Shown here piece by piece: positions 9,190 to 56,749 of a DNA stretch of 64,000 nucleotides. Every line of letters starts with the position of its first letter. The first letter of the stretch is position 1. Below the pieces are notes generated by a model. It was not told where the DNA came from and made no database searches. It was given only the letters and a program-made list of their open reading frames with translations. A program made the position numbers and the translations under genes. The stretch lies in IMG/VR virus record IMGVR_UViG_3300022848_000006; one strand, given 5' to 3'. Source of the DNA: a virus.

Positions 9190-10125
9190 TTAGAAAAATC
9201 CATTATCCACTTGCCACACCTCTAAACCCAATGCTCGGTAATGCCAGCAGATCTGTGCCCTATCGTCAATCGCGTACTTTACATTGAACCTTGGGAGAAT
9301 CTCATTTCTGAGCAATTCTTCCTTGATATCGCAGTCAGGACGCGTATCGTCTGGAGTGCGGATGAAGATTTCACACAGACCTTCTCTAAAAACTTCACAA
9401 CTAGGAAAGACTTCTTTAACGATCCAGCTTTTGGTTTCTTTAAGGGCTATTCCATCTCTACCTGTTAAGAAGATAACTTTGGGGCAACCTCTTTTCCCAG
9501 TAAGCTTATCGTGAACCAGAGATTGCACAAAAGACACGACATTAGGCTTTGGTCTATCATTCCCAACTTTGTCCCAGTCATAAGGCATACGGCCCCACTT
9601 CTCACCCTTCCCCATATCGGCGATGGTTCCATCAACGTCTACAATCACACACTCAGGCAGGCCCTCAGTAGGAGTTATGACGCGACCCTGGATCTCAAGC
9701 TGCTTGCGAAACATATCGTGAATAACGACCTCTGGAACAGAGTATGCCCTATTCAGGTTACGCTCAATCAACCTGTGAAGAGGAACGCCGAAGAATTGCT
9801 TGAAGACAACTCTAAAGCCCAGTTTCTCAGCCTTGGCCTTGGTTTGAGCTAGGTACTTACTATTGAGGTTTGTGTTATCGTCAACAACCGAAACTCCATT
9901 GAAGGCCGCGTCTCGAAGGTCTTCATCCAGTGCTAGAGTAACCCTAGTTTCCTTTGCCTTTGTGAACTTGTACTCTGACCATTGGCCAAAGTCAAACAAT
10001 GTACGACGCATATCGTCCCTGTTGAGACGAACCCCCTTTTGCTTACTTGCCCAGGTGGACTTTCCGCTGGCTGGACACCCCATTAGTATTGTGTAAGTTG
10101 GTCGTGAGTCTTCTTTAAGTGCCAT
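9190..10125 (-). CDS. pseT: Polynucleotide 5'-kinase/3'-phosphatase (T4 PseT-like)
   Basis: P-loop GCPASGKST, NRDDMR, HAD DVDGT, LTGR, DDR. Confidence 0.85.
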   Translation of the reverse strand: MALKEDSRPTYTILMGCPASGKSTWASKQKGVRLNRDDMRRTLFDFGQWSEYKFTKAKETRVTLALDEDLRDAAFNGVSVVDDNTNLNSKYLAQTKAKAEKLGFRVVFKQFFGVPLHRLIERNLNRAYSVPEVVIHDMFRKQLEIQGRVITPTEGLPECVIVDVDGTIADMGKGEKWGRMPYDWDKVGNDRPKPNVVSFVQSLVHDKLTGKRGCPKVIFLTGRDGIALKETKSWIVKEVFPSCEVFREGLCEIFIRTPDDTRPDCDIKEELLRNEILPRFNVKYAIDDRAQICWHYRALGLEVWQVDNGFF

Positions 10126-11069: not shown

Positions 11070-11134
11070 CTGGGTCTCCTTAGTTGAGGTACAATGTATT
11101 ATACACCAAAAAAGTGGACCCAGTGACAAAAAAG

Positions 11135-11472
11135 TGGAGGTGTTGGGAATTGCACCCAAGTATCCTGCGCAATCCAATTAACCGTCTACACCGATAGCTC
11201 ATTGTATTCGCACAATAAGCAAAGCTAACAACCTTTGGTCGCCGTCAAGCAAGTATGTATGCCATAACTCTAGTTTTAGCATGAGTATGCGATCCCCTAT
11301 TCTGGGGGAGCTAGGCACTTTTGGGCAACAGGGAAAGGCCATCCCCGGCAGCTACGCTGCTAGTGCGAAATTTTCGACAACTAAAAACTTTGGATCGCTT
11401 TTATACTGGCCTCAATCCAACCAGTCGGTGCAAGCTAATCTTCAAAACGCGGAGCGATTCTAATTCACCCCC
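11135..11472 (-). ncRNA. ssrA: tmRNA; predicted tag (A)DPKFLVVENFALAA*
   Basis: Acceptor GGGGGTG/CACCTCC with G3-U70, T-arm TTGGG-TGCAATT-CCCAA, internal frame ending TTC GCA CTA GCA GCG TAG. Confidence 0.88.
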
Positions 11473-22421: not shown

Positions 22422-22555
22422 GTGGAAGCTGGTCTGAGAAACCTCGGCTTAGAGTGTACTCACGCACAGTTCTAGCAAAAGTCATTGACAGAATGAAGAT
22501 CTAATGCTAACTTAGATTGGTCATAGACCCTAAGCAGATTACTCAGACCAGCCTC
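22422..22555 (-). ncRNA. Unclassified multi-branched structured RNA (about 134 nt)
   Basis: 14-bp terminal helix GAGGCTGGTCTGAG/CTCAGACCAGCTTC, inner helix GCTTAGGGT/ACTCTAAGC, four hairpins including a GNRA loop. Confidence 0.65.
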
Positions 22556-22635
22556 TTATGCTCTATTCAAAGCATTTTAAGGTTGGGTTTGCAGATTTCA
22601 TTCTCGTGTATTATAGGCTACGCACCTACAACAAT

Positions 22636-22724
22636 TAGTGAGGTAGAGATTTGCACTCTACAATACGTGATAGTTTAACGACTTCGCAAGCGGTCACATC
22701 CGTCTACCTATTCCGGCACTCACC
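22636..22724 (-). ncRNA. tRNA-like RNA with 23-nt anticodon loop
   Basis: Acceptor GGTGAG/CTCACT, D-loop GGTAGA, stem TGTGA/TCACG, T-arm TAGAG-TGCAAAT-CTCTA. Confidence 0.6.
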
Positions 22725-22781: not shown

Positions 22782-24470
22782 CTAAACCGACACTAGGTTT
22801 AGTAGCTCTTGGTCCATCGTTTCGTTGAACAGGTCCATCGCGGTCTCAATCTTGTTGTTCAGAATGAACTGAACGTTGGAAGCTGAGTAACCAGACAAGT
22901 AGAACACGTTCTTCACGTCTCCAAAGGTCTCAAACTTTTGCTTGCTACCAGAACCATAGTATCTGTTGTACAGGTTCCACAAACAAATCTTGAAGTTGTC
23001 ACAGTACTCTGGTGAGAATCCTGCTTGACGCAACTTGTTACGAGCCATTTCAACGTTGGTCTTACCCAGTTGAGCAGGATCAAACTCGCCGTCACTGATA
23101 CAAACAATTCCACCAGGGAAGTCTGACTCAGGAACACCTTGCCCCTTTAGGTTAACGAACAGGTCGATAACCGATTGGAAGTTGGTATTCCCAACACAAC
23201 CAGAGCGATCATTATGCCACTTCTCGGAAGCGGTTTGCCCTTTCCATTCGTGCATCTGTGCTGAGCGGTTAAACTCAATCCAGTTGTCTGCGAATTGTCC
23301 AGACAAAAACTCTGAGAAATACAATGCCATTGCCTTCGCAACGTTAAAGCATGTGAACTTAGATCCGTCAGCCGTATCTCCCATAGATCCCGAAGTATCA
23401 CGAACAACAATCATTCCAGTGGAATTCTCATTCTCGCCCTTCGCCTTGTTAACAGCCTCAACGAACTGCTTGTCAACGGTACTAACGAAGTTAGCATCCC
23501 TGTTGGTGTCTAGCTCACAGAGCAGTTCGTAAATGAACCCTGTGTACTTGACCGAAACAGTTTCCTTGTCATTGATCCACTCGTAGTAAGCGTCAGACAG
23601 GTTTTGGTTCTTCAAGAACTTACTACGAACCAGTAGGTTCAGGGCACGTCCATGAATTGTCTTGAAGTCCAACTCTGCAAACTTTTGTTGAGAGATCAGC
23701 TTTTGCCACTCGTGAGAGGTTCCGCTGTTCTTCAACTTGCGATACTCTCTGTAGGTCTTAGAGCCGCTCTTTGATCCGAAGACCAAGTTACAGATCCACT
23801 TAGCGATGATGTTGCCAGCTTGCTTCTCGACAGTCGTACAAGACGAGTTAGACCTGATTTGGGGCAGGTACTTCTTCATCAAGTTGACAGTGGTCTCATT
23901 CCCTAGCAACTCCACGATCAGAGCACCGAACTTATCCCAGTCCAGCTTACGTCCCTCCCAACCGTGGTACACAAGGTCTTGACGGAGCATCGTGATGATG
24001 TCCTTACAAGAACCAGCAGAAATGAATAGGCCAATGTTTGACCAAAATGCCTCTGGGTCTTTTTGAGACAGCCAGACCATACGCATGATTCCTTCATGAC
24101 GTAGCTCTGCTCCAGATTGTGCCTCTTGAGTTTTGATACCCAAGCCGAACAAATCAGTCTTACGACTAATCATTCTCATGTAGATAGTGAACTTAACGAA
24201 CAGTTCTTTGTCCTTCGCATACAGCTTAGAGCAGTCGCTAGAGATATCATCGAATGAACGTGGAGCCTTATAGGTTCCGAGGTTGCCGAATTGGTCTACG
24301 AAATCAGATCCAGTCGTTTGGAACTTCAAAGCTGCGTTGCCACTGAGAGTCTTTGCAGACTCTTTTTCCAGGCCAAACAAGAACTGATTTTTCTTATTAG
24401 AGCCTTTTTTGACCTTTTTAACACGAACTTCAATTAGTTGGTTTTTCTTTTCCTTAAACATTTCAGTCAT
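22782..24470 (-). CDS. Ro60/TROVE-like helical plus vWA protein (DUF2828 type)
   Basis: TLSGNAALKFQTTGSDFVDQF, KYLP, WQKLISQQ...F..I...AL; vWA VRDTSGSMG, NTNFQSVIDLF, CISDGEFD, LWNL, LSGYS. Confidence 0.75.
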   Translation of the reverse strand: MTEMFKEKKNQLIEVRVKKVKKGSNKKNQFLFGLEKESAKTLSGNAALKFQTTGSDFVDQFGNLGTYKAPRSFDDISSDCSKLYAKDKELFVKFTIYMRMISRKTDLFGLGIKTQEAQSGAELRHEGIMRMVWLSQKDPEAFWSNIGLFISAGSCKDIITMLRQDLVYHGWEGRKLDWDKFGALIVELLGNETTVNLMKKYLPQIRSNSSCTTVEKQAGNIIAKWICNLVFGSKSGSKTYREYRKLKNSGTSHEWQKLISQQKFAELDFKTIHGRALNLLVRSKFLKNQNLSDAYYEWINDKETVSVKYTGFIYELLCELDTNRDANFVSTVDKQFVEAVNKAKGENENSTGMIVVRDTSGSMGDTADGSKFTCFNVAKAMALYFSEFLSGQFADNWIEFNRSAQMHEWKGQTASEKWHNDRSGCVGNTNFQSVIDLFVNLKGQGVPESDFPGGIVCISDGEFDPAQLGKTNVEMARNKLRQAGFSPEYCDNFKICLWNLYNRYYGSGSKQKFETFGDVKNVFYLSGYSASNVQFILNNKIETAMDLFNETMDQELLNLVSV

Positions 24471-24530
24471 TATGAATTTCCCTGTGACAATTTGAACAAA
24501 GTGGAACGCACTTTTTTAATTCTTCTTTAA
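24463..24530 (-). pseudogene. HNH endonuclease C-terminal relic
   Basis: EELKKCVPLCSNCHREIHND*. Confidence 0.65.
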
Positions 24531-24586
24531 GCTTATTAGTACAACTAACTAGCCTAGACGTTAATTTATACTTATTGTCGTGATCC

Positions 24587-24821
24587 AGACTACATTTCAA
24601 CGTTTCAAATTATTAGTTTGATGTTTGAAGTGATTTGCGGTTTATAGTCTTGTTCGAGTTTCGTTTTCGTGCTCTACCATTAAGCTACAAGTGCAAGCAC
24701 TTGATCAGATTCGAACTGATACCACGTCATTAACAATTGAAAATAGATTGCTGAATGAAACTCTATACAGGCCACGTTTAATTCAACCAAAATGAAATTG
24801 TTTGATTTGCAGTATGCGGCC
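24587..24821 (-). ncRNA. Tandem array of three stem-closed RNA units with CNGCAA(A)TC motif (Y-RNA-like candidates)
   Basis: Units 24770-24821, 24656-24763, 24587-24650, each closed by a terminal helix and separated by 5-6 nt; middle unit holds a permuted tRNA module. Confidence 0.72.
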
Positions 24822-24842
24822 TTGTCTCGTTCTCATACTAGT

Positions 24843-24870
24843 ATTATAGCAGAGAACGAGTTTTTGTCAA
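24843..24870 (-). promoter_or_regulatory. Sigma70-type promoter driving the RNA array and TROVE-like gene
   Basis: TTGACA-N16-TATAAT. Confidence 0.8.
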
Positions 24871-24886
24871 CCCGTTTCTTGGAATT

Positions 24887-25288
24887 TTATTTGATTTTTT
24901 CCCACTCGTAGAAACCGACGCTGATTAAAACTATTTCTAGCATAACCAACCAAATCTCTGCTTGTCGAATAGTCAACTCAATCCCAGCATTTGCCATAAC
25001 AAGTCTAAATCGTTTGATTTTTATCTCGTCATAGTGAACCATTTCTTCTAACCCCCAAGCCGCAGCAAGGTCAAGCTTGAGAGTCTTTGACACCGTTTTG
25101 AAATGCTTCCAGAAGTATCGCCTTTCATAGTTTGAAAGTTCATACCCTAGAATTTCAGTTACAAAGTCTTCCAAAAGGTGTGTAAATTCTTTCTTTTTCA
25201 TGTTATCTACCGAAGTGTGCAGCCTCATCAAAAGCTTCGTTGATAGCGTCCTCTTCATCTTGCTGTTCAAGCAAAGACAATTCGACAT
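24887..25288 (-). CDS. Hypothetical protein (start probably internal)
   Basis: Coding-strand ORF. Confidence 0.4.
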   Translation of the reverse strand: MSNCLCLNSKMKRTLSTKLLMRLHTSVDNMKKKEFTHLLEDFVTEILGYELSNYERRYFWKHFKTVSKTLKLDLAAAWGLEEMVHYDEIKIKRFRLVMANAGIELTIRQAEIWLVMLEIVLISVGFYEWEKIK

Positions 25289-43445: not shown

Positions 43446-44699
43446 TTAAGATTCTTGAGATTCCATATCTATTTCTCCAGAATCTAATTGCTTAGTTTCG
43501 TGAAGATAGAAATTGGGGGACTTTGCTTTTGCGAAATACTCGTTAACTCCATATTTCATCAAAACAACACCCTCATCACAAGGAGCCCCTTCGTCGAGAG
43601 GTAAGCAGTCTTTGAACCCACTCTTAAAGAAGCTTTTGTCCATATAATAATCGACATCTATATCTTCAAACAAACCTCGTTCCATTTCTGGGACATGATT
43701 AATACCGTTCTGTAGACAAAACTCTTTAACCTGATCCCAATGGAGATCTAGCCTCATCCCATCTTGATTGACGGTAGAAATCCTGTAAACATAAAGACGA
43801 TGTTCTCCCTTGGGGATGCAGTAAGAGTAGTTCTTTTGAATGGGTGAGTCTCCCGCCCATCCAACCAACTCCCCATATAGAATCCAATTCTTAGGGATCA
43901 CATGTTTAACTTTTTCCAGAGCTTCATTGTAGATATCCGCCTTGTAGTAAGACTGTGAAGCGTCCCTATATTTAACAACTTTACGAGAGCCAGCTACGCA
44001 CTTATACTCAGACTCTATAATTTGCACTCCACACCATTTTGCGAACCGGGCAAACCAAGGCAAAGACTTTGGTACTAGCACGTTAGCCAACCTAACGCTT
44101 GATCCGTGTAGCTTAGCTGAGACAAAACAGTAGTCGTCAGGCTTCCAAGCTTGTAGGTTCCTTAGAAGCTGTGGTGTCTCATGGTGTTCAGGCAAAAGTT
44201 TTGGATCTACTTTCTGAACTTTAGCTTGACCCTTAGTCTTGTTTGAATCACCCTTGGGACTAAGAACCTGTTTGATATACTTAGAAACAACCAAGTTTCC
44301 ATTAATATGGGTGAAAGAGTCTCCGACCTTGAGGTCATTAACGTTCACATCCAAGTATGAAAGGCATGATAAAGGAAGGAAAAGGGCGTTAGACACATGG
44401 CCGCGAAGCTTAATAGCTCGAACTCTAGCGTTGTCTCCAAGATAACCCTTAGCCTCTTTGTTGCGGTTCAACTCAGAGTGTGCATGAAGGTCGTTGTATG
44501 CAGCAAGGTCGAGGGCAAGCTGGCACTCAGTAGGAAACAAAATCCCTACATCGCCAACTTCATAAGTACCTCGCGACACCACTGCCTGCATACCAAAGTG
44601 AGAGATACCCACCAATCGATCTGCATTCTCAAGGTCGAGAAGGTTTCCAATTTTAACTACTACTGCTGAGTAGTTCTCGTTATCGTTTGTAAGTTTCAT
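43446..44699 (-). CDS. ATP-dependent RNA ligase (DRB0094/Rnl5-like, N-terminal OB domain)
   Basis: LENADRL, RVRAIKLRG, motif I SAKLHGSS, YGEL, EGVV, AKAKSPNF. Confidence 0.8.
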   Translation of the reverse strand: MKLTNDNENYSAVVVKIGNLLDLENADRLVGISHFGMQAVVSRGTYEVGDVGILFPTECQLALDLAAYNDLHAHSELNRNKEAKGYLGDNARVRAIKLRGHVSNALFLPLSCLSYLDVNVNDLKVGDSFTHINGNLVVSKYIKQVLSPKGDSNKTKGQAKVQKVDPKLLPEHHETPQLLRNLQAWKPDDYCFVSAKLHGSSVRLANVLVPKSLPWFARFAKWCGVQIIESEYKCVAGSRKVVKYRDASQSYYKADIYNEALEKVKHVIPKNWILYGELVGWAGDSPIQKNYSYCIPKGEHRLYVYRISTVNQDGMRLDLHWDQVKEFCLQNGINHVPEMERGLFEDIDVDYYMDKSFFKSGFKDCLPLDEGAPCDEGVVLMKYGVNEYFAKAKSPNFYLHETKQLDSGEIDMESQES

Positions 44700-46519: not shown

Positions 46520-47860
46520 TTATACAAGTGCCAAACCGTCTTCAAGTGTATGAAACTCACCATCAAGCTGTGCTTGATAGCATCGATCAAGAATATCCTT
46601 GAACTTAGGTCCAGGCTCCATTTCCATAGCAACCAAGTGTCTACCCTTAACGATAGGATCAGGCTTACCAGTCATTAGGTCTAAACCCTCTGACAGTTCT
46701 TGGATCTTAGCAGCCGTAGCAGGAACGCCCTTAGGCAAAGGATGTCGACCACTGTGATCGGCCTCTATCAACCTAACAAGCATAGCGATGTTCGATGGTG
46801 CAACACGCACAGCCAATCGTCGCACAAGCCTGTTGTTAGGCTCAACTCCGATATGAGACATGTGCTCCACAACCAAAGGAACAACCTTCTTGACTACAGA
46901 CTCGCCGAAGCCCATTCTTGCAAGCAAGCTTCTCGTAAGGTCAGCACCCTCTTCTGCATGGCCAGGAGATCTCCATCTCTCATCACGCATGACCGTAGTA
47001 TTAGCTTTACCTAAGTCGTGGCACAATGCCGCTAGCATCAATACCAAACGATCATCGTCGTTAAGCTTATCACGTACTGCAATATCTCTAGCTGCATCGC
47101 AGACTAGGGAGGTATGGGTGAGACAGTCGCCCTCGGGATGCCATTCAGCGTCTTGTGGTAAGCCAACGAGTGCATGAAGCTCTGGAAACAGTTCTATCCA
47201 CTTAGTATCACGCAAGAAGTACAGTCCAGCACTAGGCTTGACAGACTTCAACGCCCACTTCAACACTTCTCCGTAGATACGCTCAGTAGAGATAGTATGA
47301 GCTTCTGACAACAAACTCTTACACATCAGAGAGGTACTAGGATCGACAGTAAGGTTAAACCTAGAAGCAAATTGAAACCCTCTAAGAGTTCTAAGAGGAT
47401 CTTGGGCAAATTTGTCACTAGTCGCCCTCAGAACTCTATTTTTAAGATCCTCAACTCCACCAAACGGATCAAACAAGTTTCCATCACAATCTTTAGAGAT
47501 ACTATTGATAGTAAAATCTCTACGACTCGCAGCTTCTGTTATGGTCATATTGTGATCCACCTCTACTGTAAAGCCTTGGTGACCATCGGCCACCTTACTG
47601 TCACGTCTCGGTAAAGTAAAGTCGAAGTCGTCATCTGGAGTAGTCAATTTGATTACACCAAACGACACTCCAACGCAATCGACCTTACCAAAAGGTTTAA
47701 GGACAGTGATAAGCTCGTCAGCGGACAGGCCGTACACTTCAACGTCAATGTCTTTGCTGTTTTTAATACCCAGGATTTCATCCCTCACACAGCCACCAAC
47801 GAACAAAGGGCGACCACCAACCCTAGTAACCGCGTCTAATATCTCTTGCATGTGCGTCAT
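46520..47860 (-). CDS. cca: CCA-adding tRNA nucleotidyltransferase with HD domain
   Basis: VGGCVRD, DIDVEV, RRDFTIN, DPLRTLR, ERIYGE, HPEGD, ALCHDLGK. Confidence 0.92.
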   Translation of the reverse strand: MTHMQEILDAVTRVGGRPLFVGGCVRDEILGIKNSKDIDVEVYGLSADELITVLKPFGKVDCVGVSFGVIKLTTPDDDFDFTLPRRDSKVADGHQGFTVEVDHNMTITEAASRRDFTINSISKDCDGNLFDPFGGVEDLKNRVLRATSDKFAQDPLRTLRGFQFASRFNLTVDPSTSLMCKSLLSEAHTISTERIYGEVLKWALKSVKPSAGLYFLRDTKWIELFPELHALVGLPQDAEWHPEGDCLTHTSLVCDAARDIAVRDKLNDDDRLVLMLAALCHDLGKANTTVMRDERWRSPGHAEEGADLTRSLLARMGFGESVVKKVVPLVVEHMSHIGVEPNNRLVRRLAVRVAPSNIAMLVRLIEADHSGRHPLPKGVPATAAKIQELSEGLDLMTGKPDPIVKGRHLVAMEMEPGPKFKDILDRCYQAQLDGEFHTLEDGLALV

Positions 47861-55516: not shown

Positions 55517-56749
55517 CTAAAGGCACGAGGATTCTCCGACTAGGCGACTCTCATCGCTGTACGGATGGCTTGACGTTTCATCGCAGGTCGCACCCAAGGG
55601 TGTCTTACATCCACTCCACGTCCATTTTGAGTCGTGGGCGTATCCCGCCCCGACTTGGTCGATATTCTCAGCAGCGTTCTCATCTCGATCATGGACGTGC
55701 CCGCAACTGATGCACTTCACTGTCCTGATGCTTAGGTCGAGTTTACCCCATCTGTATCCGCACTTTGAGCAGACTTGTGATGTCGGCTCGAAGCGATTGA
55801 TGATGACGACTTCTCTATCCGCGTACATCTTTCCCTTTGATTCCAGCATCACGCGAAACTGATACCATCCCTGCTCGCCAATTGCTCGTGAAAGGCATCG
55901 GTTCTTCATCATTCCAGACACGTTCAGATTCTCCAAGCTACACGTTTGGTTATCGCGTATTAGCTCGGTGCTCAATTTGTGATGGAAGTCTTTTCGGATC
56001 GACGCGATGCGAGAGTGCAACTTGGCGATGCGTATCTTCGTGCGATTACGCCTACTTGACCCTTTCCTTTGCTTGGACAACCTACGTTGAAGTCGCTTGA
56101 CTTTACTGGTGAGTTTCTTGCATGAAGGCGCAGATCGCTCACCTCTGCCACCGCTCAGGAAGGCGAAAACCTTGATACCTAGATCGATTCCGACAGACTC
56201 TAGCTTCGGCGGGCAGACGATCTGCTCCACTTCGACGACAAAACTGACGAAGTATCGACCAGAGGAATCCTTCACTATCGTTGCTGATGATGGATCTGAT
56301 GGAAGTTCCCTCGACCACTTCACTTTGATGTCGCCAATCTTCGCCAGTGTCAGTTTCCTGGTTGTTTGTATAGTGAAGCTTGTCCCTGTAAACCGGCATG
56401 ATTGATCAGACCGCCTTGACTTGAACCGTGGGAATCCAACGCGGCGGCCCTTTCGACCACCTTTTATCCACTTAGTGAACTTCGATAGACCCGCATCCAG
56501 GTCACGGAGCGACTGCTGCAACGCAACGGCACTCACACCAGAAAGCCAGGACCGCTCATCTGTTTTCTTTGCTAGCGTTGTGACTGCCTTGTCCCGTTCC
56601 TTCCTACTAACCCACTTCTCCCCCTTGGGCGTGTCGCGAATCATCCGAAGTGCGTCGTTCCAAACAACACGACAGCACCCGAACAACTGAGACAACTTGC
56701 GTTGCTGTTGGTCTGTTGGGTATATTCGGTACGAATAACGAGCTTTCAT
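55517..56749 (-). CDS. tnpB: TnpB RNA-guided endonuclease
   Basis: YRIYPT...FGCCRVVWN, GIDLG, LENLNV, TSQVCSKCG...CISCG, DRDENAA. Confidence 0.95.
   Translation of the reverse strand: MKARYSYRIYPTDQQQRKLSQLFGCCRVVWNDALRMIRDTPKGEKWVSRKERDKAVTTLAKKTDERSWLSGVSAVALQQSLRDLDAGLSKFTKWIKGGRKGRRVGFPRFKSRRSDQSCRFTGTSFTIQTTRKLTLAKIGDIKVKWSRELPSDPSSATIVKDSSGRYFVSFVVEVEQIVCPPKLESVGIDLGIKVFAFLSGGRGERSAPSCKKLTSKVKRLQRRLSKQRKGSSRRNRTKIRIAKLHSRIASIRKDFHHKLSTELIRDNQTCSLENLNVSGMMKNRCLSRAIGEQGWYQFRVMLESKGKMYADREVVIINRFEPTSQVCSKCGYRWGKLDLSIRTVKCISCGHVHDRDENAAENIDQVGAGYAHDSKWTWSGCKTPLGATCDETSSHPYSDESRLVGESSCL

What the first reader, a model, noticed from the sequence alone, without database searches (positions are those of the whole stretch)
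24656..24763. Circularly permuted tRNA-Asn-like module with a hairpin-closed acceptor stem
Seen on the minus strand in this order: residual anticodon loop TTGTTAA plus stem TGACG, variable TGGT, perfect T-arm ATCAG-TTCGAAT-CTGAT, acceptor 3' strand CAAGTGC, a 2-nt TT link, acceptor 5' strand GCACTTG, then D-arm GCTT-AATGGTA-GAGC. The tRNA 3' half precedes the 5' half and the acceptor end is sealed, so it has no CCA end to charge. CACG/CGTG joins it to the carrier stem. Known: YrlA Y RNAs mimic tRNA with T, acceptor and D stems and a usually loop-closed acceptor. Inference: a tRNA-elbow mimic that still keeps a GTT anticodon remnant, suggesting recent derivation from a real tRNA-Asn; it may act as a decoy for anticodon nucleases or an adaptor for tRNA-binding enzymes.
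Basis: partly seen in the sequence, partly recalled or inferred. Interest (0 to 1): 0.85.

Follow-up and report, generated by a model that had tools for sequence, protein, structure and literature searches.

The report
Phage tRNA-mimic RNA beside Ro60-like gene
This 108-base stretch of a large phage encodes a small RNA that folds like a tRNA with its acceptor end sealed and its ends moved into the anticodon loop; it is one of four "handle"-tagged RNAs around a gene for a Ro60-like ring protein, so it is most likely a viral version of the Ro60/Y-RNA particle that displays tRNA parts.

Summary
On the minus strand, 24656-24763 holds a 7-bp closing stem, a T-arm, a hairpin-closed 7-bp acceptor stem, U8-A9, a D-arm and a short anticodon-stem remnant. 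All universal tRNA elbow nucleotides are present.

A covariance model built only from relatives finds it at 52 bits (E about 2e-12). Rfam YrlA matches only the tRNA-like core, at 34.6 bits, below its cut-off of 69.

It is not a lone element. A consensus promoter drives three abutting units, with a fourth downstream. Each has a closing stem followed by a CNGCAA "handle". All are beside a 562-aa DUF2828/DUF7788 protein whose model superposes on Ro60 over its full length (Z 21).

In 81 related loci, 249 such units lie on the gene strand and 2 on the other. About 35-45 carry the same covarying tRNA-like module.

Recent descent from tRNA-Asn is not shown.

Best reading: a YrlA-type effector module of a Y-like RNA that partners a divergent phage Ro60. 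Binding and function are inferred.

I found no paper or Rfam family describing the handle RNAs. This scan's own notes report the same family in at least 128 other genomes.

The parts
24843..24870 (-). Consensus sigma-70-type promoter (TTGACA, 16 nt with TG, TATAAT) that would start transcription about 14 nt before unit A
   Evidence: 12 of 12 hexamer matches, with an extended -10 TG.
24769..24822 (-). Unit A: closing stem AGGCCGC/GUGGCCU, handle AU-ACUGCAAA, and an inner hairpin with the 7-nt loop UUUUGGU
   Evidence: Rfam Dicty_Class_I_RNA scores 20.9 bits, below its cut-off of 41.5.
24656..24763 (-). Unit B (the finding): 108-nt handle-bearing RNA that carries a circularly permuted tRNA-like body
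   Evidence: The MFE fold gives the closing stem, T-arm, acceptor hairpin and D-arm.
24757..24763 (-). Closing stem, 5' strand GAGUUUC (pairs with 24656-24662)
   Evidence: Orthologous stems: GGAUUUC/GAAAUCC in L017 and AGAUUUC/GAAAUCU in L011.
24747..24754 (-). Handle motif UCAGCAAU (family consensus ACAGCAA[A/U]), 2 nt after the closing stem
   Evidence: Of 354 sense-strand units in related loci, 123 read ACAGCAAA.
24730..24736 (-). Anticodon-loop-like 7-mer UUGUUAA (U33, GUU, A37, A38 in tRNA numbering)
   Evidence: Family-level signature at this register. Identical to the anticodon loop of tRNA-Asn(GTT) in L004.
24721..24729 (-). Anticodon-stem 3' strand remnant UGACG plus variable region UGGU. 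Only C42, G43 and U44 pair, with G28, C27 and A26 at 24668-24670.
   Evidence: The equivalent helix covaries in relatives (CUGU/ACAG, AUUCU/AGAAU, CCUUU/AGAGG).
24704..24720 (-). T-arm AUCAG-UUCGAAU-CUGAU
   Evidence: helix 1 is 100% paired, and 4 of 5 pairs show changes on both sides. G53, T54, Psi55, C56, A58 and C61 are invariant.
24688..24703 (-). Acceptor stem closed on itself (CAAGUG-CUUG-CACUUG); no discriminator base and no CCA
   Evidence: all 7 pairs covary across relatives, whose loops range from 3 to 86 nt.
24671..24687 (-). U8-A9 and D-arm GCUU-AAUGGUA-GAGC
   Evidence: U8, G10, A14, G18 and G19 are invariant; A21 is nearly invariant.
24656..24670 (-). A26, CGAAA (anticodon-stem 5' strand remnant), AC, and closing-stem 3' strand GAAACUC
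24587..24650 (-). Unit C: closing stem AGACUAUA/UGUAGUCU, handle A-ACCGCAAA, and an inner hairpin with the 7-nt loop CUAAUAA
22782..24470 (-). 562-aa Ro60-like protein (helical-repeat ring plus vWA with an intact MIDAS DxSxS..T..D); Pfam DUF7788, family DUF2828, phrog_850
   Evidence: AlphaFold2 mean pLDDT 82.8. Foldseek top 10 hits are all Ro60/TROVE. VIA-align Z 21.1 to 1yvp_A over 419 residues.
22490..22604 (-). Unit D downstream of the gene: closing stem AGAAUGAA/UUCAUUCU, handle A-UCUGCAAA
   Evidence: The same closing stem lies downstream of the gene in L011 and L012.

Best explanation
Unit B is one of four small RNAs transcribed with the gene of a divergent Ro60-like ring protein. They lie in the gene's leader and trailer.

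Each RNA has a common 'handle': a 7-9 bp helix joining its two ends, followed by the single-stranded motif (A/U)C(A/U)GCAA. Each also has a variable display part.

In unit B the display part is an almost complete tRNA body with a changed topology:
- The acceptor stem is closed by a loop.
- The RNA's ends, with the handle, are inserted at the 5' side of the anticodon loop.
- The D/T elbow is intact.
- An anticodon-loop-like UUGUUAA lies single-stranded next to the handle.

Shown:
- the structure and its conservation
- the linkage to the gene
- the Ro60 fold of the protein

Inferred:
- The protein binds the handle, as Ro60 binds the Y RNA stem.
- The tRNA-like part then works as the YrlA module is thought to work. 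It would recruit or occupy host or phage proteins that recognise tRNA shape: modification or repair enzymes, exonucleases, or tRNA-cleaving defence nucleases.
- It would do this within a phage that also carries 11 tRNAs, a tmRNA, PNKP, an RNA ligase and a CCA-adding-type enzyme.

It cannot be aminoacylated.
For: Structure:
- Rfam YrlA matches the core.
- In an 18-sequence alignment, 98.6% of cells are paired, 14 of 16 pairs change on both sides, and the covariation score is 1.06 against 0.25 in shuffles and at most 0.22 in slid controls.
- The leave-one-out model scores 52.0 bits.
- The universal tertiary nucleotides are invariant.
- The MFE fold reproduces the arms.

Family and linkage:
- Model R1 gave 74 hits, all on the gene strand, in 85 sources.
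- The strict handle search gave 249 sense and 2 antisense units in 81 loci; 57 loci have at least one.
- Handle units also lie by the DUF2828 gene in Felix O1 and in Listeria A511, Bacillus, Enterococcus, Staphylococcus and Campylobacter phages.

Protein:
- Foldseek and VIA-align place Ro60/TROVE first over the full length, at Z 13-21. vWA-only hits reach Z 9.8 at most.
- The MIDAS residues are invariant.

Topology:
- Citrobacter phage Ci1 has the unpermuted form: an open acceptor with CCA and the handle hairpin inside the anticodon loop.

Context:
- PNKP, an RNA ligase and a CCA-adding-like gene lie in the window.
- RtcB or an RNA ligase lies next to the gene in A511, XbC2 and Serratia phage BF.

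Literature:
- YrlA lies next to Ro60 in 22 phages (PMC4201824).
- Bas63 gp130, from a Felix O1-type phage, is Ro60-like and counters the Ppl defence system. The authors only guessed at Y RNAs (10.1101/2024.10.10.617714). Its kinship to this protein is inferred from the Felix O1 homologue, not compared directly.
Against:
- Pfam TROVE is not detected in the protein.
- YrlA's own Ro-binding helix is absent, and the Rfam score is half the cut-off.
- The sequences in the covariation alignment were picked by their ability to pair, which inflates the percentage paired.
- Folding energy is no better than shuffles.
- 24 of 81 loci show no strict unit within the 2-kb flanks, and two jumbo-phage loci had none.
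Confidence: 0.72

Rival explanations
1. Free-standing tRNA decoy or bait. The unit acts without the Ro60-like protein, as a competitive substrate or inhibitor for host tRNA-targeting defence nucleases or other tRNA-binding proteins. The handle serves only for stability or processing.
For: - Anticodon-loop-like signature in elbow modules and in the 7-nt loops of short units.
- The triplets seen include GUU, GUA, GUC, UUC, UUU, CUU, UCU, UUG and CUG. From general knowledge, these are typical targets of anticodon nucleases.
- The phage carries a tRNA repair kit.
Against: - The handle travels with the DUF2828 gene, on the same strand, across very different phages. A decoy that did not need the protein would not require this.
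- In unit B the anticodon stem is reduced to 3 pairs, so it is a poor copy of an anticodon stem-loop.
Confidence: 0.13
2. Cis-acting processing or regulatory element. The tRNA-like fold in the leader is a recognition signal for RNase P, RNase Z or another tRNA-processing enzyme. That enzyme cuts the polycistronic transcript and sets the level of the downstream mRNA, and no stable functional RNA results.
For: - The units abut one another with conserved 5-6 nt linkers (GAUAAG, GUAUAG) in one transcription unit with the gene.
- M. smegmatis YrlA is cut by RNase P (PMC4201824).
Against: - Arrays lie downstream of the gene more often than upstream (187 against 51).
- Most units have no tRNA-like body.
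- The sealed CUUG-capped acceptor offers no normal RNase P or RNase Z site.
Confidence: 0.1
3. Non-functional debris: a decayed tandem or rearranged tRNA gene pair, or a false positive of the kind dimeric tRNAs give to YrlA models.
For: Tandem tRNA junctions do hit the module model at low scores (22-31 bits in this window). Chen et al. warn of this artefact (PMC4201824).
Against: - The two acceptor strands are perfectly complementary to each other, which a junction of two tRNAs would not give.
- No flanking tRNA halves are found.
- The same architecture, with compensatory changes, sits inside handle units in dozens of loci.
Confidence: 0.03

Closest known systems
YrlA Y RNAs of bacteria and phages (Rfam RF02553; Chen et al. 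2014, PMC4201824), partners of Ro60/Rsr
   Same: - Same permuted tRNA-like core in the same 5'-to-3' order: anticodon-stem strand, variable region, T-arm, loop-closed acceptor stem, U8-A9, D-arm, anticodon-stem strand.
- It lies next to, and on the same strand as, a Ro60-fold gene.
- The neighbourhood holds RNA repair and tRNA genes.
   Different: - YrlA's outer Ro-binding helices are missing. In their place is a short closing stem plus a single-stranded CNGCAA handle.
- The score is 34.6 bits against a cut-off of 69.
- The partner protein is DUF2828/DUF7788, with no detectable TROVE Pfam domain.
- The RNA is one unit of a tandem array, and it keeps an anticodon-loop-like 7-mer.
Dictyostelium Class I RNAs (Rfam RF01414; Kjellin et al. 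2021, PMC7919456)
   Same: - Same design as the handle: a short stem joining the 5' and 3' ends, the motif ..UUACAGCAA directly after the 5' strand, a variable A/U-rich interior, and 'CUG' at or after the 3' strand.
- In five whole phage genomes the best RF01414 hits fall on the units beside the DUF2828 gene. Two units of Leptolyngbya phage Lbo-JY46 score 39.3 and 30.7 bits.
   Different: - All hits are below the cut-off of 41.5. Unit B itself is not hit, and unit A scores 20.9 bits.
- These are phage RNAs driven by a bacterial promoter, not Pol III/DUSE genes.
- No tRNA-like body has been described in Class I RNAs.
- Homology, as opposed to convergence, is untested.
Thermus phage phiLo Ro60 with Yrl1/Yrl2 (PMC12135203), and Deinococcus Rsr-Yrn1-PNPase
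   Same: A phage-encoded Ro60-fold protein with adjacent small RNAs. It is proposed to engage host RNA enzymes as a counter-defence.
   Different: - The phiLo protein is a canonical TROVE Ro60.
- Its RNAs were not compared here.
- No handle motif is known for them.
Circularly permuted tRNA genes (red alga Cyanidioschyzon and some archaea; from general knowledge)
   Same: The 3' half of the tRNA precedes the 5' half in the gene.
   Different: Those genes are processed through a circular intermediate to give a normal, chargeable tRNA with an intact anticodon arm. Here the link is a 2-nt (CUUG) cap with no discriminator base or CCA, and the anticodon stem is reduced to 3 pairs.

Membership tests
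YrlA (RF02553) | tRNA-like domain: T-arm with a UUCGAAU-type loop, loop-closed acceptor stem, and D-arm with G18 G19, in that order | tested here: met
YrlA (RF02553) | Score at or above Rfam's gathering threshold (69 bits) | tested here: not met
   34.6 bits. Relatives score 37.2 bits, over model positions 24-84 only.
YrlA (RF02553) | Long terminal helices with the conserved Ro60-binding strand, formed by the RNA's 5' and 3' ends | tested here: not met
   The middle helix of the model is deleted in the alignment. The outer 'UUGUU/AACAA' pairing would cross the real closing stem GAGUUUC/GAAACUC.
YrlA (RF02553) | Encoded within 4 kb of a Ro60 (TROVE) gene | tested here: inconclusive
   A Ro60-fold gene starts 186 nt downstream (Z 21.1). 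It has no Pfam TROVE hit, only DUF7788.
YrlA (RF02553) | Bound by Ro60; carries tRNA modifications (D, T, Psi) | not testable with these tools
   Needs immunoprecipitation and modification mapping.
Dictyostelium Class I RNA (RF01414) | Short stem joining the ends, with the 11-nt motif CCUUACAGCAA next to the 5' strand | tested here: inconclusive
   The stem is present. Unit B reads UCAUUCAGCAA, matching 8 of 11 positions. The motif positions that Kjellin et al. call almost identical between dictyostelids are kept at C6, C9, A10 and A11 but not at U3.
Dictyostelium Class I RNA (RF01414) | Score at or above the gathering threshold (41.5 bits) | tested here: not met
   Unit B gives no hit and unit A scores 20.9 bits. 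The best relative scores 39.3 bits.
Dictyostelium Class I RNA (RF01414) | Conserved 5' G and 3' CUGU ends; DUSE promoter; dictyostelid genome | tested here: not met
   Unit B starts with G, but GAAC follows its stem. The promoter is sigma-70 type and the genome is a phage.
Ro60/TROVE protein family (for the partner gene) | Full-length ring of helical repeats followed by a vWA/MIDAS domain | tested here: met
   MIDAS residues D358, S360, S362, T429 and D460 are invariant.
Ro60/TROVE protein family (for the partner gene) | Sequence-level match to Pfam TROVE or to solved Ro60 chains | tested here: not met
   There is no TROVE hit, and phmmer finds no PDB chain at E <= 1.
Permuted tRNA gene (functional tRNA after processing) | Intervening sequence between the 3' and 5' halves with a discriminator or CCA context, and an intact anticodon stem-loop | tested here: not met
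   The link is 2 nt, only 3 anticodon-stem pairs remain, and ARAGORN makes no call.

The most novel reading that the evidence does not exclude
The handle RNAs are a modular display system. Each unit presents a piece of a particular tRNA, either an anticodon stem-loop or a whole permuted body that keeps its anticodon, on a Ro60-like ring. The particle would act as bait, decoy or sensor for host nucleases that cut specific tRNAs. On this view, unit B would be the tRNA-Asn(GUU) bait of a phage that carries no tRNA-Asn gene.

A further step follows from the handle. It matches the Dictyostelium Class I RNAs, so those unexplained RNAs would be the Y-RNA equivalents of eukaryotic DUF2828 proteins.
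Probability: 0.15. Interest if true: 0.9.

Novelty: new variant of a known kind. Interest (0 to 1): 0.68.

Why it matters
Ro60 and its Y RNAs are a conserved but poorly understood RNA-surveillance particle. DUF2828/DUF7788 is a large family of unknown function, found in hundreds of phages including Felix O1, A511/P100 and Staphylococcus, Enterococcus and Campylobacter phages.

This locus does three things:
- It gives the family a concrete RNA partner with a recognisable binding handle.
- It shows that the YrlA-type tRNA mimic is one interchangeable display module among several.
- It shows that the modules keep anticodon-loop features.

That makes a long-standing question testable in tractable phages: what do the tRNA-like parts of Y RNAs do? 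One family member from a Felix O1-type phage, Bas63 gp130, is already reported to counter a defence system. Its kinship to this protein is inferred, not compared directly. The handle's likeness to the Dictyostelium Class I RNAs offers a lead on those RNAs as well.

Tried and rejected
- DNA similarity to deposited phages gave no match for 24300-25100.
- phmmer of the protein against PDB sequences gave nothing. The Ro60 relationship is visible only by fold.
- The protein Atlas search returned only the protein's own viral DUF2828/DUF7788 clusters and no eukaryotic lead.
- Avesson et al. 2011, on the Class I RNA pull-down proteins, is not held. I therefore could not check whether DDB_G0281243 is a DUF2828 protein.
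- The Rfam alignment's outer pairing UUGUU/AACAA is rejected as an artefact. AACAA lies outside the real closing stem.
- The MFE pairing of the handle (AGCAAU) with AUUGUU in unit B is not conserved in L017 or L011, so I do not rely on it.
- My loose handle finder is not specific on the whole 176-kb genome, giving 9 sense and 12 antisense hits at its threshold. Only the strict version, or the clustering next to the gene, is informative.
- Nearest-neighbour typing of the module body against 66-104 phage tRNAs did not single out Asn for this unit.
- No complex prediction was run, because the tool folds proteins only.

Full report
**What is there**

The window is part of a 175,823-bp virus record with 43% G+C. 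It has 11 tRNA genes, none of them for Asn, and a tmRNA hit.

On the minus strand, a perfect TTGACA-16-TATAAT promoter lies at 24870-24843. Three abutting small-RNA units follow it, and then, 116 nt later, a 562-codon gene at 24470-22782.

The finding's coordinates, 24763-24656, delimit the middle unit exactly. Its parts, in order:
- closing stem GAGUUUC/GAAACUC
- the spacer 'AU' and the motif UCAGCAAU
- a 10-nt spacer
- UUGUUAA, UGACG and UGGU
- T-arm AUCAG-UUCGAAU-CUGAU
- CAAGUGC-UU-GCACUUG
- UA
- D-arm GCUU-AAUGGUA-GAGC
- A, CGAAA and AC

RNAfold on the 108 nt alone returns the closing stem, the T-arm, a 6-bp acceptor hairpin with a CUUG loop, and the D-arm. The energy is no better than that of shuffled sequence (z -0.21).

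**Is it more than chance?**

- Rfam's YrlA model aligns the T-arm, closed acceptor and D-arm at 34.6 bits (E 1.1e-5 for the stretch searched). That is below its cut-off of 69, and its outer helices are unmatched.
- I collected 90 loci that encode relatives of the neighbouring protein and found the same arrangement in many of them.
- In an alignment of 18 such modules, 98.6% of cells pair. Of 16 pairs, 14 change on both sides. The covariation score is 1.06, against 0.25 in shuffles and at most 0.22 when partners are slid.
- These sequences were picked because they can pair, so the percentage paired is partly built in. The diversity of the pairs is not.
- The invariant columns are U8, G10, A14, G18, G19, G53, T54, Psi55, C56, A58 and C61. 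These are the nucleotides that build the tRNA elbow.
- A model built without the window finds the window's module at 52.0 bits (E about 2e-12 in 120 kb). Junctions of neighbouring true tRNAs reach only 22-31 bits.
- The module is not such a junction, because its two acceptor strands are complementary to each other. ARAGORN finds no tRNA there.

**The neighbourhood**

Unit A lies at 24822-24769, unit C at 24650-24587, and a fourth unit downstream of the gene at 22604-22490. All share unit B's frame: a 7-8 bp helix joining the two ends, then 1-2 nt, then CNGCAA(A/U).

Across 81 non-redundant related loci, a strict search for this handle finds 249 units on the gene strand and 2 on the other. The search required at least 7 bp, at most one G-U pair, a purine-purine start, G after the stem, and the motif within 3 nt. 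57 loci have at least one unit, and arrays of up to nine occur. The family consensus is AG(A/G)nnnn-nn-ACAGCAA(A/U)...nnnnUCU-GAUAAG.

Handle units also sit by the homologous gene in these phages:
- Salmonella phage Felix O1, with four units between its tRNA genes, one of them carrying a tRNA-like body
- Listeria phage A511
- Bacillus phage Skywalker
- Enterococcus phage EfsSzw-1
- Staphylococcus phage S-CoN_Ph5
- Campylobacter phage F374

Module model R1 hit 74 places in 85 sources, all on the gene strand.

**The protein**

- Pfam sees only DUF7788; relatives also carry DUF2828. PHROGs calls it 'RNA-binding protein'.
- An AlphaFold2 model built from 40 sequences has mean pLDDT 82.8.
- Foldseek's ten best PDB matches are all Ro60/TROVE structures over about 550-620 alignment columns.
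- VIA-align gives Z 21.1 to Xenopus Ro60 (419 residues, rmsd 4.6) and Z 13-20 to human, Deinococcus and Thermus-phage Ro60. The next tier is vWA domains alone, at Z 9.8 or less.
- The MIDAS residues are invariant.
- It is therefore a full-length Ro60-fold protein that sequence methods do not place in TROVE.

**The anticodon question**

I first took UUGUUAA for chance, because the unit at the same position in close relatives reads differently: L017 has CUUCUAA and L011 has AUUUUAA.

A register-by-register count changed that view. It covered 31 non-redundant modules and placed position 43 by the variable-loop length and by pairing to the strand after the D-arm:
- U at '33' in 19 of 31 (background 27%, p about 7e-5)
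- a purine at '37' in 30 of 31 (p about 9e-8)
- A at '38' in 23 of 31
- no preference at 34-36 or at neighbouring registers

These p-values ignore relatedness among the sequences.

The short units point the same way. Their predicted inner hairpins most often have 7-nt loops (53 of 132), with U33 in 83% and R37 in 81%. Examples are CUUUUAA, CUGUUAA and CUCUUAA.

A crude permutation test finds that a module's D- and T-arms resemble reference tRNAs of the isotype named by its triplet more than chance predicts (1.01 against 0.66 +/- 0.13, p = 0.0015).

For this unit, UUGUUAA is identical to the anticodon loop of the real tRNA-Asn(GTT) of the related phage L004. With the loop masked, however, Asn is not among the best body matches.

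So an anticodon-loop remnant or mimic is plausible. Descent from tRNA-Asn, recent or not, is not shown.

Citrobacter phage Ci1 carries the unpermuted counterpart next to its DUF2828 gene: a tRNA-like gene with an open acceptor, CCA, and the handle hairpin plus ACAGCAAA inserted before CUCUUAA in the anticodon loop. This supports the view that these RNAs are tRNA bodies with the handle inserted at the 5' side of the anticodon loop, in either topology.

**How it most likely works**

By analogy with Ro60 and Y RNA, the ring protein binds the handle and the tRNA-like body is the effector part. This step is inferred.

The context fits RNA maintenance or counter-defence:
- PNKP, an RNA ligase and a CCA-adding-type enzyme lie in the window.
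- RtcB or RNA ligase genes lie beside the homologue in other phages.
- A preprint reports that Bas63 gp130, from a Felix O1-type phage, is Ro60-like and counters the Ppl defence system. It only guesses that Y RNAs hide among the tRNA genes (10.1101/2024.10.10.617714). Its kinship to this protein is inferred from the Felix O1 homologue, not compared directly.

Rivals are a protein-independent decoy, a processing signal, and debris. They are weighed in their own sections.

**Comparison with the known**

- The core is YrlA-like (PMC4201824), but membership of RF02553 fails on score and on the Ro-binding helices.
- The handle resembles Dictyostelium Class I RNAs, which have been reported as unique to dictyostelids (PMC7919456).
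- RF01414's best hits in five whole phage genomes fall on these units, but all are below its cut-off.
- I could not test whether dictyostelids have a DUF2828 protein.
- I found no paper or Rfam family that describes the handle RNAs.
- This scan's own unchecked notes report the same protein-RNA pairing in at least 128 other genomes.
- I reached the array, the Ro60 fold and the Class I likeness before reading those notes. Their wording 'anticodon-displaying' prompted the tests.

**Verdict**

The element is a new variant of the Ro60/Y-RNA kind, and its function is still inferred.

Noticed in passing
window 22422-22724 (-): Just after the Ro60-like gene lies a tRNA-like gene with an enlarged anticodon loop and a T-loop UGCAAAU (about 22636-22724). 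A 12-bp helix, GGCUGGUCUGAG/CUCAGACCAGCU (about 22553-22425), interleaves with unit D's closing stem, so the two pairings exclude each other or form a knot.
   Followed up: partly
window 11132-11472 (-): Rfam tmRNA hit at 48.2 bits, just above the cut-off of 47. ARAGORN did not call it. Related loci L008 and L005 also carry tmRNA hits near the Ro60-like gene.
   Followed up: no
window 9190-10125, 43446-44699, 46520-47860 (-): Polynucleotide kinase-phosphatase, an RNA ligase, and a PolyA_pol-head + HD (CCA-adding-type) enzyme. Together they make a tRNA repair kit in the same phage.
   Followed up: partly
window 55517-56749 (-): IS605 OrfB / TnpB-like protein (OrfB_IS605 plus a Cas12f1-like TNB domain) inside the phage genome.
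   Followed up: no
L002 3882-4116 (Citrobacter phage Ci1, OR515478.1): Two tRNA-like genes lie right after the DUF2828 gene. The first has a 50-nt anticodon-loop insertion that holds a hairpin plus ACAGCAAA, making it the unpermuted form of unit B. The second is annotated 'tRNA-Pseudo'.
   Followed up: partly
L006 4645-4756, L009 4996-5105, L014 2240-2347, L018 4132-4244, L030 5027-5133, L084 2717-2825: A second display type recurs in the handle units: a T-arm followed by a conserved GGU..UGG(U/C)..UGGAAUA segment in place of the acceptor hairpin and D-arm. Its structure is not worked out.
   Followed up: no
L003 501-1052 (Listeria phage A511, NC_009811.2): ROOL RNA hit at 87.5 bits (cut-off 99.1), between a tRNA-Pro and the three handle units upstream of the 'RNA-binding protein' gene. 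RtcB lies 1.3 kb downstream of that gene.
   Followed up: no
L005 2371-2458: RAGATH-1 hammerhead ribozyme hit at 49 bits (cut-off 56.3), directly upstream of the Ro60-like gene in a viral contig.
   Followed up: no
L095 4010-4357 (Staphylococcus phage S-CoN_Ph5, OR354828.1): Tiny annotated 'hypothetical protein' CDSs overlap the three handle units downstream of the gene, or lie just beside them. They are probably mis-annotated RNA genes.
   Followed up: partly
L004 4869-4940: A 72-nt tRNA called Tyr(GTA) with a short variable arm, which is unusual for a bacterial-type tRNA-Tyr. It is the best body match to the window's module.
   Followed up: no
many loci, linker between units: The inter-unit linker together with the end of the closing stem reads CUGAUAA(G). 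This is also the sequence of a tRNA-Ile(GAU) anticodon loop. It may be a coincidence or a processing signal.
   Followed up: no
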